32,000 nt of DNA from Candidatus Saccharimonadota bacterium (GCF_047555085.1 NZ_CP180230.1:450001-482000); one strand, 5' to 3'. Shown: positions 27,082 through 31,214, counted from the stretch's first letter. Notes: generated by a model not told the origin, from the sequence alone. Numbers and translations: made by a program.

Positions 27082-30000
27082 ATGGCTTCTCTAGATCAGA
27101 AACAGAAAAGAGAAAAAGTCCAGGAACTTCTCAAAGAAATTGATTCTCCAGAAAAAGTTTACGAGTTCTTCGAGGAAATAGGATACGAAAACTCGACGAG
27201 AGACCCGAGCTACAAGAGAGATATATCCGAATTCAATTTTAAAGAAAAAGCGGAAGATAAACTGGAAAACATCTATACTGTACTAGATTACCAGGATGAG
27301 ATAACTGTTCTTCTGATCGAAACCGAGAGCCTATCCAAGACTCACGTAAGGTATGTTACAGAGAGATTAGCCCGTAAATTCAATTATATTCTGCCAATAT
27401 TCACTTCAGATTTCAGGAAATATCAGTTCGTATTCCCGACATTTGACGAAACCACTCCAGGAGAAATCGACATCCAGCTGACAACACTTGAAGTAGACTC
27501 GGAGAATGTGTTTTATTCTGATGCAGACGCTTTGAGTAAGATCTGGCTGGAAGAGGAAAGAAACTTTCCGCATGTCTGGAACCAGTGGGAAAAGGCCTTC
27601 AGCATCGACAAAGTCACGGAACAGTTCTTTGAAGACTACCAAGAACAGTTCTTCCACATAAGGGGAAAAGTACTTGAACAAGTCGATGATGTCCACGACG
27701 CACACGAGTATACGCTGCAGTTTATGAACCGGATGATGTTCGTCTACTTCGTCGACAAGAAAGGATGGCTAGAAGGAGAAGAAGGCGAATCCTATATTCA
27801 ATGGCTCTGGGACAAATATCGGAAACAAGGAGGCCTGCAAAATGACTCTGATGAGTTCTACAACGAATGGCTGGATGATTTGTTCCACAAAGCATTCAAC
27901 AACAAGTTTACAGGTAACCCTGAACTACCGCAGGAAGTAAACCAGTCATTCCAGAGAGCACCATACCTCAACGGAGGCCTATTCAGAGAAAACTCTCTGA
28001 GCAAGCTCGATGTAGAACTGGAAGACTCAGTAATCGAAGATATAATCCACGACTTCTTCGAAAGATACAACTTCACAATCAAAGAAGACAGCCCAGTCGA
28101 CAAAGAAGTAGCAGTAGACCCACAAATGATCGGATATGTGTATGAGTCGCTGTCCAATGTAGCAGAACAACTAGAAGACCTGGACAAGGATTCCAGGAAA
28201 GAATTCGGCATATTCTACACACCAAAAGAAGAAGTCTACTTCATGGTCAGAAGATCTCTAGTAGAATACTTGGAGAATAATACAGGCCTCTCCAAAAACA
28301 AGATCTACAAACTAGTATTCGCAGAAGGAGACGAAGAAAAGAAAGAAACACGGAAAGAATTCACAGAAGAAGAACTCGAACAAGTCAAATACACTCTCCA
28401 GGACATGAAATCTGTTGATCCTGCCTGTGGATCAGGAGCATTCCTAGTCGGAATAATCGATGTAATATCAGAGATCTTCGAACAAATCGAGAAAAAACAA
28501 GGCTCCGATTTGAACATGTTCGAAGCCAAAAAAGAAATAATACAAAACTCGATTTACGGAGTAGATGTCAAAGACTGGGCTATCAACGCCTCAGAACTAA
28601 GACTCTTCCTACAACTACTGATCGAGACAGATATACCGAAAGAAGAAATCCAGAGAAAAGCACTCTTGCCAAACCTCAGGGCTAACTTGCGTGTAGGAGA
28701 CTCACTGGTACAGGACATCGACGGAATCTTCTTCGACCTCCGAGAGAATCAACTGGAAGGCATCACGAAAAGCCACATGGAAGAAATCCAGAAACACAAA
28801 TCCAAGTTCTTCGAAGACCGCAGCAAATCCAAATACGACGGCATAGCAGACATCCAAACAGACGAAATCAAGTTCTTCCAAAGAGCAATCGACGACAAAA
28901 TAGAAGAACTAGAAGAAAAACTGGAAGAAGACGAATCCAAACAACAAACACTCAACGGAGAAACCAAAGAACCCTCCGGAAACGAAAAACGCCAAATCAC
29001 CCGGCAGAAAAAAGAAACGAGGAAAAGAATCGAAAAACTGGAAGAACTGAAACAGGATATCATCCAGGAACAGGACAAAATGCCGATGCTCTGGGAAGTC
29101 GCCTTCGCAGAAGTATTCAACAACAACGGCGGCTTCGACCTCTTGATAGGGAATCCTCCATATGTCCGACAAGAAGACATCGCACCACCAAACATGGACC
29201 CGAACAATGTCTCTAAACAGGACAAGAAAGACTACAAAAACAAGTTAATCGAATCCGTCCAGAACAGGATGCCACAAGTCGAGAAGATTTCCAAGAGAAG
29301 CGACCTATACATCTACTTCTACTTCCACGGCCTCTCACTGATCAACGACGAAGGAACATTTGCCTTTATTACATCCAACTCCTGGCTCGATGTAGGATAC
29401 GGAAAAGAACTCCAACAATTCCTCTGCAAACATGTACCAATCAAAGGAATCTACAACAACAAAAACAACCGAAGCTTCGAACACGCCGATGTCAACACAG
29501 TAATATCAATATTCGGAGCACCAAACTTCGAAACCAAAAGCTTCGACGGATGGGAAATCGACACAGACCGATGGCCAGAAACAGACCACAACGCACAGTT
29601 TGTAACTTTCAAGAAACCGTACAGGGAAGCAGTCAGCGCCGACAACATGATCGCACTCGAAAACGACACCCACTACGACAAAAACATCCAACTCGACCGC
29701 TCAAGTTTTGAGCTTTACAACACTCAAGACCTCCGCTCCGTCCAAATAACACAAGGAAACCTACTCGAAGACGGCTGGCAATACCCAGAAAACTACGAAG
29801 GAGAGGCCTTCACTAAAGGCAAGTATGATGGAAACAAGTGGGGTGGCAAATTCCTCAAAGCTCCTGATGCATTCTATAAAATTCTAAATAGGGCTTCTGG
29901 GAATATCACAGAACTCGGCGACTTCATGGATATCAGATCAGGATGCTATTCCGGAATTAACGACTTCTTCTATTTAGATGAAGAGGAAGTGGAAGAATGG

Positions 30001-30792
30001 GATCTGGAGGATGAATACATAGTTGATTTATTCAAATCGCCGAAGGAATCAGATCAGATTGAACTAGAAGAAGAGAACTTAAAGAAAAAAGTTCTACTCT
30101 GTAGAGATGATCTAGAGACTGTGAAGGAAAAGGCTCCAAATACCTACGATTATATCGAGTGGGGAAGCAACCAGGAGAGAGAATCTAAGCAGAAAACTTC
30201 TGCAGGCACGCCGTGGCCTGAAGTGCCTTCGGTGAACAGTAGATCTCCTGGTTGGTGGGCTATTCCCAATATTGACCCTGTAAATATTTTCATGATCTAT
30301 GGAATCAATCAAAGATACATATTTTGGCACAGCGAAGAAGCAAAGATTAGCGACAGAAGGCTGCACATGGCCAATTTAACAACAGATAAGATATCAAGCA
30401 AGAAAATTGTTGCTGTGTTAAACTCGACTATTACGCCTTTGATGATCGAGCTGATAGGAAGAAGTAACCTTGGTCAAGGTGCTCTGGACTTTGCAACAAC
30501 AGACGCAAATGATATCCTCTTCCCAGATCCTGAAATGATAGATAGTATTGACCTACAAGAGGACACTATAGAAGACTTCTTCAATAGAGAGATAAAAGGA
30601 ATTTTCGAAGAAGTAGGTCTTGAAAGAGGAAAGCCAATAAGAGAACAGGAACCAGAAATAAAAGACGATAGAAAGAAAGTAGACGATGCCGTGTTTGATG
30701 CGTTGGGGCTTTCTGAGGGTGAGAGGAAGGAGGTTTACTGGAGTGTTGCCGAGTTGGTGAAGGCCCGGCTGGATAAAGCGGAGAGTGTATAG
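27082..30792 (+). CDS. Large single-chain Type IIG/IIL-like restriction-modification enzyme (Eco57I/MmeI/PglX-like gamma-class N6-adenine DNA methyltransferase fusion).
   Basis: - Helical-domain motifs: FMNRMMFVYFVDKKGWL and PYLNGGLF.
- YNFTIKEDSP...VAVDPQMIGYVYESL.
- FGIFYTPKEEVYFMV.
- AdoMet motif I: DPACGSGAFLVG.
- A K/E-rich coiled insertion.
- Catalytic motif IV: LLIGNPPYV.
- About 500 aa of C-terminal target-recognition region.
- A nuclease motif in the N-terminal 100 aa (DYQDEITVLLIETESLSK) is only tentatively PD-(D/E)xK-like. Confidence 0.88.
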   Translation: MASLDQKQKREKVQELLKEIDSPEKVYEFFEEIGYENSTRDPSYKRDISEFNFKEKAEDKLENIYTVLDYQDEITVLLIETESLSKTHVRYVTERLARKFNYILPIFTSDFRKYQFVFPTFDETTPGEIDIQLTTLEVDSENVFYSDADALSKIWLEEERNFPHVWNQWEKAFSIDKVTEQFFEDYQEQFFHIRGKVLEQVDDVHDAHEYTLQFMNRMMFVYFVDKKGWLEGEEGESYIQWLWDKYRKQGGLQNDSDEFYNEWLDDLFHKAFNNKFTGNPELPQEVNQSFQRAPYLNGGLFRENSLSKLDVELEDSVIEDIIHDFFERYNFTIKEDSPVDKEVAVDPQMIGYVYESLSNVAEQLEDLDKDSRKEFGIFYTPKEEVYFMVRRSLVEYLENNTGLSKNKIYKLVFAEGDEEKKETRKEFTEEELEQVKYTLQDMKSVDPACGSGAFLVGIIDVISEIFEQIEKKQGSDLNMFEAKKEIIQNSIYGVDVKDWAINASELRLFLQLLIETDIPKEEIQRKALLPNLRANLRVGDSLVQDIDGIFFDLRENQLEGITKSHMEEIQKHKSKFFEDRSKSKYDGIADIQTDEIKFFQRAIDDKIEELEEKLEEDESKQQTLNGETKEPSGNEKRQITRQKKETRKRIEKLEELKQDIIQEQDKMPMLWEVAFAEVFNNNGGFDLLIGNPPYVRQEDIAPPNMDPNNVSKQDKKDYKNKLIESVQNRMPQVEKISKRSDLYIYFYFHGLSLINDEGTFAFITSNSWLDVGYGKELQQFLCKHVPIKGIYNNKNNRSFEHADVNTVISIFGAPNFETKSFDGWEIDTDRWPETDHNAQFVTFKKPYREAVSADNMIALENDTHYDKNIQLDRSSFELYNTQDLRSVQITQGNLLEDGWQYPENYEGEAFTKGKYDGNKWGGKFLKAPDAFYKILNRASGNITELGDFMDIRSGCYSGINDFFYLDEEEVEEWDLEDEYIVDLFKSPKESDQIELEEENLKKKVLLCRDDLETVKEKAPNTYDYIEWGSNQERESKQKTSAGTPWPEVPSVNSRSPGWWAIPNIDPVNIFMIYGINQRYIFWHSEEAKISDRRLHMANLTTDKISSKKIVAVLNSTITPLMIELIGRSNLGQGALDFATTDANDILFPDPEMIDSIDLQEDTIEDFFNREIKGIFEEVGLERGKPIREQEPEIKDDRKKVDDAVFDALGLSEGERKEVYWSVAELVKARLDKAESV

Positions 30793-30795
30793 ATT

Positions 30796-31005
30796 ATGGC
30801 TCAAGCTGCTGGACCTCAAAATAGTTTTGAAAGGATTATAGAAGGGATTTTTGCACTCTTTGTGCTGTTTATTTTTGGTACAGAGGTTTTCCCTGAACTG
30901 TTGCAGACTCTAGATTATCCTCTTTCGCCTTTCGTCATCTATGGCTCTTTGTTTTTGGCAGGTGTTGCTATTCTCTTGAGTATTGTAGGTGAGTTCTCTA
31001 GATGA
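30796..31005 (+). CDS. Small 2-TM membrane protein, translationally coupled to the restriction-modification gene.
   Basis: The ATG lies 3 nt after the restriction-modification gene's stop codon. Hydrophobic helices IFALFVLFIFG and VIYGSLFLAGVAILLSIV. Confidence 0.55.
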   Translation: MAQAAGPQNSFERIIEGIFALFVLFIFGTEVFPELLQTLDYPLSPFVIYGSLFLAGVAILLSIVGEFSR

Positions 31006-31214
31006 TTAGGAACGAGATTTCTACGGGCGCAATTCTGACGATCGTATTTGCAGGTGCGTATATGGCTATTTCTACTATTTGGGGTTCAGAACTTTCCAGT
31101 CTTGGTAAGATGACCTATACTAACACAGTGTTGATTTTCCTTGCTGTGCTTGTATTTGGAGTTGTTAGAGGAGGAAATTATATCGAGAACTATATGACAA
31201 ATAAAAGTGAGTAA
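31002..31214 (+). CDS. Small 2-TM membrane protein, overlapping the previous gene (ATGA).
   Basis: The start and stop codons overlap at 31002-31005. Hydrophobic helices GAILTIVFAGAYMAISTIW and VLIFLAVLVFGVV. Confidence 0.55.
   Translation: MIRNEISTGAILTIVFAGAYMAISTIWGSELSSLGKMTYTNTVLIFLAVLVFGVVRGGNYIENYMTNKSE

What the first reader, a model, noticed from the sequence alone, without database searches (positions are those of the whole stretch)
27082..31214. A giant Type IIG methyltransferase-nuclease-like gene translationally coupled to two 70-aa double-TM proteins
**Seen in the sequence**
- The 1236-aa enzyme carries gamma-class N6-adenine methyltransferase motifs (DPACGSGAFLVG and GNPPYV) and the MmeI/Eco57I/PglX-type helical region (PYLNGGLF, YNFTIKED).
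- Its stop codon (30790-30792) is followed 3 nt later by the ATG of a 69-aa 2-TM protein.
- That gene's stop overlaps the ATG of a second 70-aa 2-TM protein (ATGA at 31002-31005).
- This arrangement implies one operon with coupled translation.

**Established knowledge**
- Type IIG/IIL enzymes normally act as stand-alone polypeptides.
- PglX homologues work within multi-gene BREX loci.
- Small membrane proteins are common effectors of abortive-infection systems.

**Inference**
This may be a three-gene defence module in which a DNA-sensing or modifying enzyme is paired with membrane effectors or anchors. An unambiguous nuclease motif is not evident in the N-terminal region, which leaves room for a non-canonical mechanism. 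A Doc/Fic toxin gene lies just downstream, at 31769.
Basis: partly seen in the sequence, partly recalled or inferred. Interest (0 to 1): 0.62.

Follow-up and report, generated by a model that had tools for sequence, protein, structure and literature searches.

The report
Methylase operon with two membrane mini-proteins
The large gene is the DNA-marking half of a widespread two-part restriction-like defence system whose DNA-cutting motor lies 4 kb downstream, outside the window. The two tiny membrane proteins are real, conserved add-ons found only in salt-loving nano-archaea, and their role is untested.

Summary
In detail: all three ORFs, the methylase motifs and the 3-nt and ATGA junctions are as described.

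**The large protein.** It is not a stand-alone Type IIG enzyme. Its N-terminal domain has no conserved catalytic residues. In 55 of 59 informative loci from many phyla, its homologues lie on the same strand as a PLD(HKD)-nuclease/SNF2 ATPase. In this genome that gene lies 4.3 kb past small ORF B, beyond the window. DUF499 is absent, so this is not MANTIS/Hma.

**The two 2-TM ORFs.**
- They are genuine genes (dN/dS 0.04–0.10).
- They form an orphan family, with no relatives among 1.84 billion representative proteins.
- Every copy found (8 lineages, all hypersaline or nanohaloarchaeal) sits directly after this methylase.
- In one lineage, methylase, A, B and helicase form a fully overlapping four-gene operon.
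- Elsewhere, TA, Kiwa or Fic cargo is inserted after B.
- The pair has been lost at least twice and carries a nonsense mutation in one lineage, so it is accessory.

**Function.** My favoured reading, a membrane tether or sensor, is inference only.

This scan had noted the same stretch and the helicase in this genome, and nothing on other DNA.

The parts
27052..27061 (+). A/T-rich TATA-like element (cattaaaatt) 21-30 nt upstream of the methylase ATG; candidate archaeal promoter of the methylase-A-B transcript
   Evidence: Read from the sequence. Inference only, with no transcript data. A similar ctttaatt(a/t)ttctg element precedes the helicase gene in loci that carry the TM pair.
27082..30792 (+). 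Modification/specificity subunit: a 1236-aa MmeI/Eco57I-like gamma-class N6-adenine methyltransferase with a C-terminal target-recognition domain
   Evidence: ORF. Pfam Eco57I, MmeI_Mtase and N6_Mtase. Best PADLOC match is REase_MTase_IIG at 1e-48, covering residues 164-811 only. More than 3800 homologues, about 40% identical across archaea and bacteria.
27082..27576 (+). N-terminal domain (aa 1-165): a degenerate, probably non-catalytic domain in the position of the MmeI nuclease domain
   Evidence: In a 63-sequence alignment no acidic or lysine residue in aa 1-165 is invariant or 90% conserved. E80 is present in 53/63 sequences; position 82 is K in only 23/63 and is E here. The AF2 model has pLDDT 89 but no PDB match at E<=1e-3. 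No Type IIG profile aligns to this part.
28417..28452 (+). Methyltransferase motif I (DPACGSGAFLVG, AdoMet binding)
   Evidence: Invariant in 18 homologues.
29149..29166 (+). Methyltransferase motif IV (GNPPYV, catalytic NPPY)
   Evidence: Invariant in 18 homologues.
29857..30591 (+). Hypervariable target-recognition domain (aa 926-1170)
   Evidence: This segment is only 25-33% identical to close relatives whose remaining sequence is 69-93% identical. That pattern fits swapping of specificity domains.
30796..31005 (+). Small membrane protein A (69 aa, 2 TM), translationally coupled to the methylase
   Evidence: Two hydrophobic segments. Orphan family of 5 clusters among 5.8 billion proteins. 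dN/dS 0.04 within allelic types. No match in Pfam, NCBIfam, PADLOC or PHROGs.
31002..31214 (+). Small membrane protein B (70 aa, 2 TM, invariant TxTNTxLI and RG motifs, acidic C-terminal tail); its start overlaps A's stop (ATGA)
   Evidence: 13 clusters among 5.8 billion proteins. A profile search of 1.84 billion representatives found nothing beyond the family itself. dN/dS 0.06-0.10. Not a paralogue of A.
31296..31760 (-). First gene of the variable cargo block: a 154-aa multi-TM protein of unknown family, convergent with A-B
   Evidence: No family match. Not conserved in the other loci with the TM pair.
31769..32000 (+). Cargo: start of a 133-aa weak Fic/Doc-like ORF that runs past the window end
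   Evidence: Pfam Fic E 1e-3, below the cut-off. Beyond the window lie a wHTH gene, DUF7718, HEPN/MNT and a second Fic gene. The HKD-SNF2 restriction subunit then follows at G000:C1:485123-488296, which would be 35123-38296 in window numbering.

Best explanation
The 1236-aa protein is the modification and specificity subunit of a two-component, ATP-dependent, restriction-modification-like system. It is an MmeI/Eco57I-type N6-adenine methylase with a swappable recognition domain and a degenerate N-terminal domain. The restriction subunit is a separate HKD(PLD)-nuclease/SNF2-ATPase protein, encoded 4.3 kb downstream in this genome, outside the window.

Inferred mechanism, by analogy with the MANTIS proteins MtsC/MtsD and with nuclease-less MmeI homologues. 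The methylase marks one strand of an asymmetric site on host DNA. Unmarked sites on incoming DNA, bound by the methylase, license the dimeric HKD-SNF2 motor to translocate and cut.

The space between the two core genes is a recurrent insertion slot for unrelated TA and defence cargo.

In a nanohaloarchaeal subclade, the first position of that slot holds two strongly constrained orphan 2-TM proteins, A and B. They are co-transcribed and translationally coupled with the methylase. Ancestrally the arrangement was a four-gene operon, methylase-A-B-helicase.

I propose that A and B form a small 4-TM heteromer that acts as a dispensable accessory of the system. Most likely it tethers the methylase/nuclease complex at the membrane, or gates it there, at the point where foreign DNA enters.

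Shown: gene reality, linkage, operon structure, accessory status. Inferred: the A-B complex, membrane tethering, and every biochemical step.
For: **Core pair**
- HKD-SNF2 homologues (25-57% identical over nearly the full length) lie on the same strand within 7.4 kb of the methylase homologue in 55 of 79 loci from many archaeal and bacterial phyla. Only 4 loci with at least 8 kb on both sides lack one.
- In 4 close relatives the two genes are adjacent or overlapping.
- This genome's helicase has intact HGKAYIWD...GSSN, GLGKT, DESH and QRAGRIDR motifs. It matches PLDc_2, SNF2-rel_dom, Helicase_C and the PADLOC 'HKD+Snf2' model at 5e-52.
- The methylase N-terminus has no conserved catalytic residues.
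- The recognition domain is hypervariable.

**Variable slot**
- It holds ImmA/IrrE+DUF4411 in 9 loci and MNT(+HEPN) in 8. Other loci hold RelA_SpoT, Hsp70-TPR+UvrD, DUF4365, AAA_14/DUF4143 or Kiwa KwaA/KwaB.

**TM pair**
- It is found only in this context, in 8 lineages: window, L005, L016, L018, L020, L101/L104, L102 and L105.
- It always comes 1-3 nt after the methylase stop where the upstream sequence is visible, while the cargo after B differs from locus to locus.
- L102 is a fully overlapping methylase-A-B-helicase operon. L018 has only 66 nt between B and the helicase.
- dN/dS is 0.04-0.10.
- In the helicase tree, loci with the TM pair are both basal and in the crown.
Against: - No experiment bears on any step.
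- The pair is dispensable. It is absent from L001, L013, L014 and L015. L013's helicase is 92% identical to this genome's. A carries an in-frame TAA in L018/L019. None of this suggests an obligatory subunit.
- A and B have almost no soluble parts with which to contact the methylase or helicase.
- A and B differ far more between allelic types (36-44% aa identity) than the flanking methylase (78-83%) and helicase (96%). That pattern is also expected for an independent, fast-evolving cassette.
- In the experimentally studied relative MANTIS, methylation needs a DUF499 ATPase that is absent here. The analogy for the core mechanism is therefore incomplete.
- The B. subtilis analogue DnmA/YeeB/YeeC showed no restriction in transformation assays (PMC7261158).
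Confidence: 0.55

Rival explanations
1. A-B is an autonomous two-gene membrane cassette. It could be a toxin/immunity pair, an abortive-infection module, or a superinfection-exclusion module that blocks DNA entry. It entered the cargo slot once in the nanohaloarchaeal ancestor and persists by linkage and its own selective value, without working together with the methylase or helicase.
For: - The slot routinely hosts self-contained two-gene TA or defence modules.
- The pair can be lost without loss of the core genes.
- Discrete, highly diverged allelic types under strong within-type constraint resemble toxin/immunity or exclusion cassettes.
- The ATGA-coupled, equal-sized pair resembles holin/antiholin or small toxin/antitoxin layouts (my own knowledge).
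Against: - Unlike the other cargo, the pair is never seen in any other genomic context, either among 5.8 billion proteins or among 1.84 billion representatives.
- It keeps its exact position, 1-3 nt after the methylase stop, while the cargo behind it turns over.
- In L102 it overlaps both core genes in one operon.
Confidence: 0.3
2. One reading: a stand-alone three-gene module in which a Type IIG-like enzyme with a non-canonical nuclease is paired with membrane effectors, with no other component needed.
For: - The three genes are tightly coupled.
- The best PADLOC profile match is Type IIG.
- L003 and G037 carry close methylase homologues with no helicase in the stretch seen.
Against: - The helicase-nuclease partner is present in 55 of 59 informative loci and in this genome.
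- The N-terminal domain has no conserved catalytic residues and no nuclease fold match.
- All loci with the TM pair and enough downstream sequence contain the helicase.
- Morgan et al. 2009 found no endonuclease activity in two nuclease-motif-less MmeI homologues (PMC2731913).
Confidence: 0.05
3. The locus is a decayed or domesticated remnant. The methylase acts as an orphan epigenetic methylase, as proposed for B. subtilis DnmA. The helicase, separated by 4.3 kb of cargo, no longer cooperates with it, and A-B have an unrelated housekeeping membrane role.
For: - DnmA/YeeB/YeeC showed no restriction in the assays used, and DnmA affects promoter activity (PMC7261158).
- In this genome the core genes are split by nine cargo ORFs, and the helicase has its own promoter-like element.
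Against: - All catalytic motifs in both core proteins are intact.
- The recognition domain is being swapped among close relatives.
- The system is sporadic: the methylase is found in 2 of 70 genomes of the phylum. It sits among defence genes. Both features are typical of an active defence island rather than housekeeping.
- A-B occur in no nanohaloarchaeal genome that lacks the methylase.
Confidence: 0.1

Closest known systems
MANTIS (Gao_RL; BREX-related type 2; related to Hma): MtsA-MtsB-MtsC-MtsD (bioRxiv 10.64898/2026.09.23.753747; PMC12839542)
   Same: An N6-adenine methylase with its own recognition domain (MtsC-like) works with a dimeric HKD/PLD-nuclease plus SF2/SNF2 ATPase effector (MtsD-like). 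The catalytic His is at about position 120 in both proteins: H119 here, H122 in MtsD. Expected to share hemimethylation of asymmetric sites and restriction of unmodified DNA.
   Different: No DUF499 AAA+ ATPase (MtsA) in this genome or in 5 other genomes that carry the pair. No DUF3780 gene in the locus. The methylase is a 1236-aa MmeI/Eco57I-type protein with an extra N-terminal domain. MANTIS has no membrane proteins.
Nuclease-less MmeI homologues with neighbouring helicase: B. subtilis DnmA(YeeA)/YeeB/YeeC 'Type I-like' system (Morgan 2009, PMC2731913; Nye 2020, PMC7261158)
   Same: An MmeI-like methylase whose N-terminus lacks PD-ExK and that is invariably flanked by a helicase gene. The N-terminal domain is proposed to dock a separate motor/nuclease.
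   Different: In that system the partner is a DEAD-type helicase plus a separate GIY-YIG-like protein. Here the partner is a single HKD-SNF2 fusion. DnmA is shorter. No membrane proteins. Homology of the partner proteins was not tested here.
MmeI / Eco57I Type IIG (IIL) restriction-modification enzymes
   Same: Helical domain, gamma-class methylase domain and C-terminal recognition domain (Pfam MmeI_Mtase, Eco57I, M_Eco57I_C). A vestigial D...E80-x-K82-like position at the same place as the MmeI D70...E80-x-K82 motif (MmeI motif from my own knowledge).
   Different: The catalytic triad is not conserved in the family (K in 23/63 sequences; E in this protein). The enzyme is not stand-alone.
Type ISP enzymes (LlaGI/LlaBIII) and SauUSI
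   Same: The same set of activities: nuclease, SF2 motor, gamma-class methylase and recognition domain (Type ISP). SauUSI has a PLD nuclease fused to an SF2 motor.
   Different: Type ISP enzymes are a single polypeptide with an Mrr nuclease. SauUSI is modification-dependent and has no methylase partner.
Zorya (ZorAB membrane complex with ZorD SNF2-nuclease) and Kiwa (KwaA membrane sensor with KwaB)
   Same: The concept only: a membrane-embedded component encoded alongside a cytoplasmic DNA-targeting effector. The helicase here gives weak ZorD matches (1e-15). A Kiwa system sits right behind A-B in L104.
   Different: A and B (about 70 aa, 2 TM each) have no detectable similarity to ZorA, ZorB or KwaA. 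They lack any soluble domain.

Membership tests
Type IIG/IIL bifunctional restriction-modification enzyme (MmeI/Eco57I) | Gamma-class N6-adenine methyltransferase motifs I and IV with a C-terminal recognition domain | tested here: met
   Pfam Eco57I 7e-26 and MmeI_Mtase 9e-12. Motifs invariant. Hypervariable aa 926-1170.
Type IIG/IIL bifunctional restriction-modification enzyme (MmeI/Eco57I) | N-terminal PD-(D/E)xK endonuclease motif in the same polypeptide | tested here: not met
   No conserved acidic or Lys residues in aa 1-165 across 63 homologues. This protein has E80-T-E82. Type IIG profiles align only from residue 150 onwards. The fold search was uninformative.
Type IIG/IIL bifunctional restriction-modification enzyme (MmeI/Eco57I) | Acts alone, with no conserved helicase or nuclease neighbour | tested here: not met
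   A same-strand HKD-SNF2 neighbour is present in 55 of 59 informative loci.
MANTIS / Gao_RL / BREX-related type 2 (and Hma) | HKD-nuclease plus SF2/SNF2 helicase effector next to an N6-methylase | tested here: met
   PADLOC 'HKD+Snf2' 5e-52 and HmaA 1.6e-26.
MANTIS / Gao_RL / BREX-related type 2 (and Hma) | DUF499 AAA+ ATPase (MtsA/HmaC) | tested here: not met
   PF04465 is absent from this genome's single 1.05-Mb contig. The positive controls matched. It is also absent from 5 other genomes that carry the pair.
MANTIS / Gao_RL / BREX-related type 2 (and Hma) | Stand-alone DUF3780 protein (MtsB) | tested here: inconclusive
   PF12635 was not found in this genome, but no control genome matched either. 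None of the locus ORFs matched it in Pfam.
BREX (PglX methylase) | PglX-level similarity, plus PglZ and BrxC in the locus | tested here: not met
   NCBIfam PglX models score 44-58 bits against cut-offs of 400-900. No PglZ or BrxC among the locus ORFs.
DISARM class 1 | DrmA helicase and DrmB (DUF1998) together with DrmD, DrmMI and DrmC | tested here: not met
   Only DrmD-like (1.7e-48) and DrmMI-like (2e-21) similarity was found. There is no DUF1998 or second helicase among the ORFs from the methylase to 3 kb past the helicase.
DnmA/YeeB/YeeC-type 'Type I-like' systems | Nuclease-less MmeI homologue flanked by a conserved helicase | tested here: met
   Definition taken from PMC2731913.
DnmA/YeeB/YeeC-type 'Type I-like' systems | Separate GIY-YIG-like YeeC protein, and sequence homology of the partners to YeeB/YeeC | not tested
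   No GIY-YIG match among the locus ORFs in Pfam. Direct comparison with YeeB/YeeC was not run.
Zorya / Kiwa membrane sensors | Homology of A or B to ZorA, ZorB or KwaA | tested here: not met
   No PADLOC, Pfam or PHROGs match for A or B. The profile search found no outside relatives.

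The most novel reading that the evidence does not exclude
A and B form a minimal membrane-embedded sensor or anchor. It couples events at the cell envelope to the methylase-guided HKD-SNF2 nuclease. Those events could be virus genome entry or, in these DPANN episymbionts, DNA passing through the contact with the host cell. This would be Zorya/Kiwa-like logic grafted onto a restriction-modification core, and it would show spatial control of restriction in archaea.
Probability: 0.15. Interest if true: 0.8.

Novelty: new variant of a known kind. Interest (0 to 1): 0.45.

Why it matters
The DUF499-less methylase + HKD-SNF2 pair is abundant. The family has thousands of members, and 188 tblastn-confirmed methylase homologues were found across the collection of one genome per species. 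As far as the papers I found show, the pair is untested experimentally.

Its closest studied relative, MANTIS, needs an extra ATPase to load the methylase. How this simpler pair discriminates self from non-self is therefore an open and testable question.

The conserved, strongly constrained pair of orphan membrane mini-proteins inside the operon is unusual for restriction-modification systems. If it works with the core genes, it would be a compact example of membrane-linked restriction in archaea.

The locus also illustrates a general feature: the gap between the two core genes collects TA and defence cargo in many phyla. That gap could be mined for new defence genes.

Tried and rejected
- **Family libraries for A and B.** Pfam, NCBIfam, PADLOC and PHROGs gave no credible match.
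- **Remote homologues of B.** A profile search of B against 1.84 billion representative proteins found only the family itself and two low-complexity TM hits.
- **A and B as paralogues.** hhalign probability 0.5%. Rejected.
- **Fold of the methylase N-terminal domain.** The model is confident (pLDDT 89), but Foldseek against PDB gave nothing at E<=1e-3. To my knowledge the MmeI nuclease domain is not resolved in solved structures, so the fold question stays open.
- **PDB sequence search with the whole methylase.** Only methylase-domain matches (7lni, 8cxz, 8c45).
- **Survey of 70 Nanohaloarchaeota genomes.** The methylase is in 2 genomes. The TM pair is in this genome only. The weak G009 hit (E 1e-4) has no methylase or helicase nearby and is judged spurious.
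- **Hma/MANTIS membership.** Rejected because DUF499 is absent.
- **BREX and DISARM membership.** Rejected.
- **Third membrane component.** The 154-aa reverse-strand TM protein after B was considered. It is not conserved in other loci.
- **Bacterial-type promoter/terminator scan.** At or below shuffle expectation, and not appropriate for an archaeon.

Full report
**1. Observation**

- 27082-30792, 1236 aa.
- 30796-31005, 69 aa, called A here.
- 31002-31214, 70 aa, called B here.

The junction reads ...GTA TAG att ATG, and A/B overlap as ATGA.

The quoted motifs are present. Those of the methylase core are invariant across an 18-sequence family alignment. Pfam assigns Eco57I, MmeI_Mtase and N6_Mtase. 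The best PADLOC profile is REase_MTase_IIG, but it aligns only from residue 164 onwards. NCBIfam PglX models score far below their cut-offs.

A and B each have two hydrophobic segments.

The window is bases 450001-482000 of a single 1.05-Mb contig. The closest homologues come from Nanohaloarchaea and hypersaline metagenomes.

**2. The large protein is not a stand-alone enzyme**

The family is very large. More than 3800 proteins score E<=1e-3, many about 1230 aa long and about 40% identical across archaeal and bacterial phyla.

I fetched 79 loci from the collection of one genome per species and searched them with this genome's proteins:
- A homologue of a 1057-aa HKD(PLD)-SNF2 protein lies on the same strand in 55 of 79 loci.
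- It is downstream of the methylase in 42 loci and upstream in 13.
- The median gap between the two genes is 1.7 kb.
- Twenty of the 24 loci without it are cut off by contig ends.
- Only 4 loci with at least 8 kb on both sides lack it.

Among close relatives from hypersaline metagenomes, the two genes are adjacent or overlapping in L001, L013, L014 and L015.

In this genome the partner lies at G000:C1:485123-488296, 4.3 kb past ORF B and 3.1 kb beyond the window end. Its features:
- Pfam PLDc_2, SNF2-rel_dom and Helicase_C.
- PADLOC 'HKD+Snf2' at 5e-52 and DrmD at 1.7e-48.
- Intact HGKAYIWD...GSSN, GLGKT, DESH and QRAGRIDR motifs.

The methylase N-terminal domain (aa 1-165) has no invariant or 90%-conserved acidic or lysine residue in 63 homologues. 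E80 is present in 53/63. The position of the would-be catalytic lysine is K in only 23/63 and is E in this protein. A confident AF2 model (pLDDT 89) found no PDB match.

The segment aa 926-1170 is only 25-33% identical between relatives whose remaining sequence is 69-93% identical. This is the signature of specificity-domain swapping.

Together this identifies the protein as the modification/specificity subunit of a two-gene restriction-like system. The nuclease and motor are supplied in trans.

**3. Relation to known systems**

Morgan et al. 2009 (PMC2731913) described MmeI homologues that lack the PD-ExK motif, showed no endonuclease activity, and are invariably flanked by a helicase gene. 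They proposed that the N-terminal domain docks the separate motor/nuclease. The B. subtilis example DnmA/YeeB/YeeC methylates GACGAG but showed no restriction in transformation assays (PMC7261158).

The HKD-SF2 architecture matches MtsD of MANTIS (Gao_RL, BREX-related type 2; bioRxiv 10.64898/2026.09.23.753747; PMC12839542). In MANTIS:
- The methylase hemimethylates asymmetric sites.
- A dimeric HKD-helicase restricts unmodified DNA.
- Methylation needs a DUF499 ATPase (MtsA) and a small co-regulator (MtsB).

DUF499 is absent from this genome, with positive controls matching. It is also absent from five other genomes that carry the pair. The system therefore works like these relatives but is a member of neither MANTIS/Hma, BREX nor DISARM.

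An earlier follow-up of this scan on the helicase stretch (e1-2720242) reached the same view of the pair. I re-derived it independently.

**4. The gap between the core genes is a cargo slot**

ORFs between methylase and helicase differ from locus to locus. Clustering and Pfam show:
- HTH-ImmA/IrrE + DUF4411 pairs in 9 loci.
- MNT (with HEPN) in 8 loci.
- PIN-like, RelA_SpoT, Hsp70-TPR + UvrD, DUF4365 and AAA_14/DUF4143 genes.
- An IS200-like gene.
- Kiwa KwaA/KwaB.
- MJECL33/32.

In this genome the slot holds, after A and B:
- a 154-aa TM protein;
- a weak Fic ORF;
- a wHTH gene;
- DUF7718;
- HEPN/MNT;
- a second Fic gene.

**5. The two small membrane genes**

*They are real genes.* In pairwise comparisons within allelic types, A shows 26-28 synonymous against 5.5-8 non-synonymous differences (dN/dS 0.04). 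B gives 0.06-0.10.

*They are orphans.*
- No match in Pfam, NCBIfam, PADLOC or PHROGs.
- Only 5 (A) and 13 (B) clusters among 5.8 billion proteins.
- No outside relatives among 1.84 billion representatives.
- A and B are not paralogues.

*Every copy recovered lies in the same context.* The lineages are the window, L005/L006, L016/L017, L018/L019, L020, L101/L104, L102 and L105/L106.
- Wherever the upstream sequence is visible, A starts 1-3 nt after the methylase stop.
- B overlaps A.
- Wherever enough downstream sequence is present, the helicase follows.

*The distance from B to the helicase varies.*

| Locus | Arrangement after B |
|---|---|
| L102 | All four genes overlap: methylase TGA-t-ATG A; A/B overlap 8 nt; the helicase ATG lies 23 nt inside B |
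| L018 | Helicase starts 66 nt after B |
| L005, L020 | About 1.5-1.7 kb of MNT-type cargo |
| Window | 3.9 kb of cargo |
| L016 | 6.3 kb of cargo |

The cargo behind B turns over, but A-B keeps its place.

*Helicase promoter.* Loci with the TM pair share a TATA-like ctttaatt(a/t)ttctg element about 30-45 nt before the helicase start. This suggests the helicase acquired its own promoter.

*History.* In a helicase tree, loci with the TM pair are both basal (L020, L018) and in the crown (window, L005, L016). Loci without the pair are interleaved. The simplest history is an ancestral methylase-A-B-helicase operon in this clade with at least two losses.

*Further limits on its role.*
- A carries an in-frame TAT-to-TAA change in L018, seen again in an independent assembly L019.
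- Only 2 of 70 genomes of the phylum carry the methylase, and only this one carries A.

The pair is thus a constrained but dispensable, lineage-restricted accessory.

**6. What A and B do**

Nothing here tests function. Three allelic types exist. Between types, A and B are 36-48% and 36-66% identical, whereas the flanking methylase 3' end is 78-83% and the helicase 5' end 76-96% identical. The cassette therefore either evolves fast between types or is exchanged by recombination.

*Accessory of the system.* Three things favour this:
- exclusive linkage;
- fixed position directly behind the methylase;
- the fully overlapping operon in L102.

I favour a small A-B heteromer that holds or gates the complex at the membrane. 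B's conserved Arg-Gly after TM2 and its acidic tail would face the cytoplasm.

*Autonomous membrane cassette (toxin/immunity, abortive infection or exclusion).* These favour it:
- dispensability;
- lack of soluble domains;
- cassette-like alleles;
- the habit of this slot of collecting such modules.

I put the two readings at roughly 0.55 and 0.30.

**7. Verdict**

The finding is a new variant of a known kind. It is a DUF499-less methylase + HKD-SNF2 restriction-like pair, itself widespread but uncharacterised. In Nanohaloarchaeota it carries an orphan pair of membrane mini-proteins within the operon.

Noticed in passing
L022-L100 (gap between methylase and helicase); e.g. L022:13716-15352, L057:12791-15697, L038:13589-17219: Across many phyla, the interval between the methylase and the HKD-SNF2 gene collects unrelated TA and defence modules. 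Examples: ImmA/IrrE+DUF4411 in 9 loci, MNT/HEPN in 8, RelA_SpoT, Hsp70-TPR+UvrD, DUF4365, AAA_14/DUF4143 and an IS200-like gene. It could be mined for new defence genes.
   Followed up: partly
L104:3207-4756 (and the homologous L101:3052-4601): A Kiwa system (KwaB 326 aa + KwaA 179 aa, Pfam hits on record) sits on the opposite strand immediately after the A-B pair in one lineage. A known membrane-sensor defence system is thus lodged next to the orphan membrane pair.
   Followed up: no
window 31296-31760 (-); L016:8273-8758 (-); L101:4062-4601 (-): In three loci with the type-1 pair, the gene convergent with B is a multi-TM protein of 154-179 aa. The three show no sequence similarity to one another, and the L101 one is KwaA-like.
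   Followed up: partly
L018:5165-5167 and L019 (same position): Small protein A carries an in-frame TAA in place of the conserved Tyr codon. It appears in two assemblies from different sample records, while the rest of the ORF stays conserved. This looks like recent inactivation or a tolerated nonsense change.
   Followed up: partly
L025:7718-9721: In a Nitrospiraceae locus, a 667-aa membrane protein (3 TM, weak DUF2254 match) starts on the methylase stop codon. It is a non-homologous membrane partner in the same position in a bacterium.
   Followed up: no
L001:9735-12917: The helicase homologue next to the closest metagenomic methylase relative is split into 713-aa and 330-aa ORFs, so it may be disrupted. 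Divergent McrB-like AAA_5 genes lie upstream in L001 and L014.
   Followed up: no
L012 (G037:C54) 662-1501 (-): The only other genome of the phylum with this methylase has a 279-aa unknown ORF overlapping the methylase stop. It has no TM pair and no helicase in the short contig. Its methylase is 84-92% identical up to aa 925 but only 33% identical in the recognition domain.
   Followed up: partly
L008:5770-6171 and 8543-8932 (window 31769 onward, and beyond the window): Two Fic/Doc-like ORFs, 26% identical to each other, lie in the cargo block. The first scores below the Pfam cut-off.
   Followed up: no
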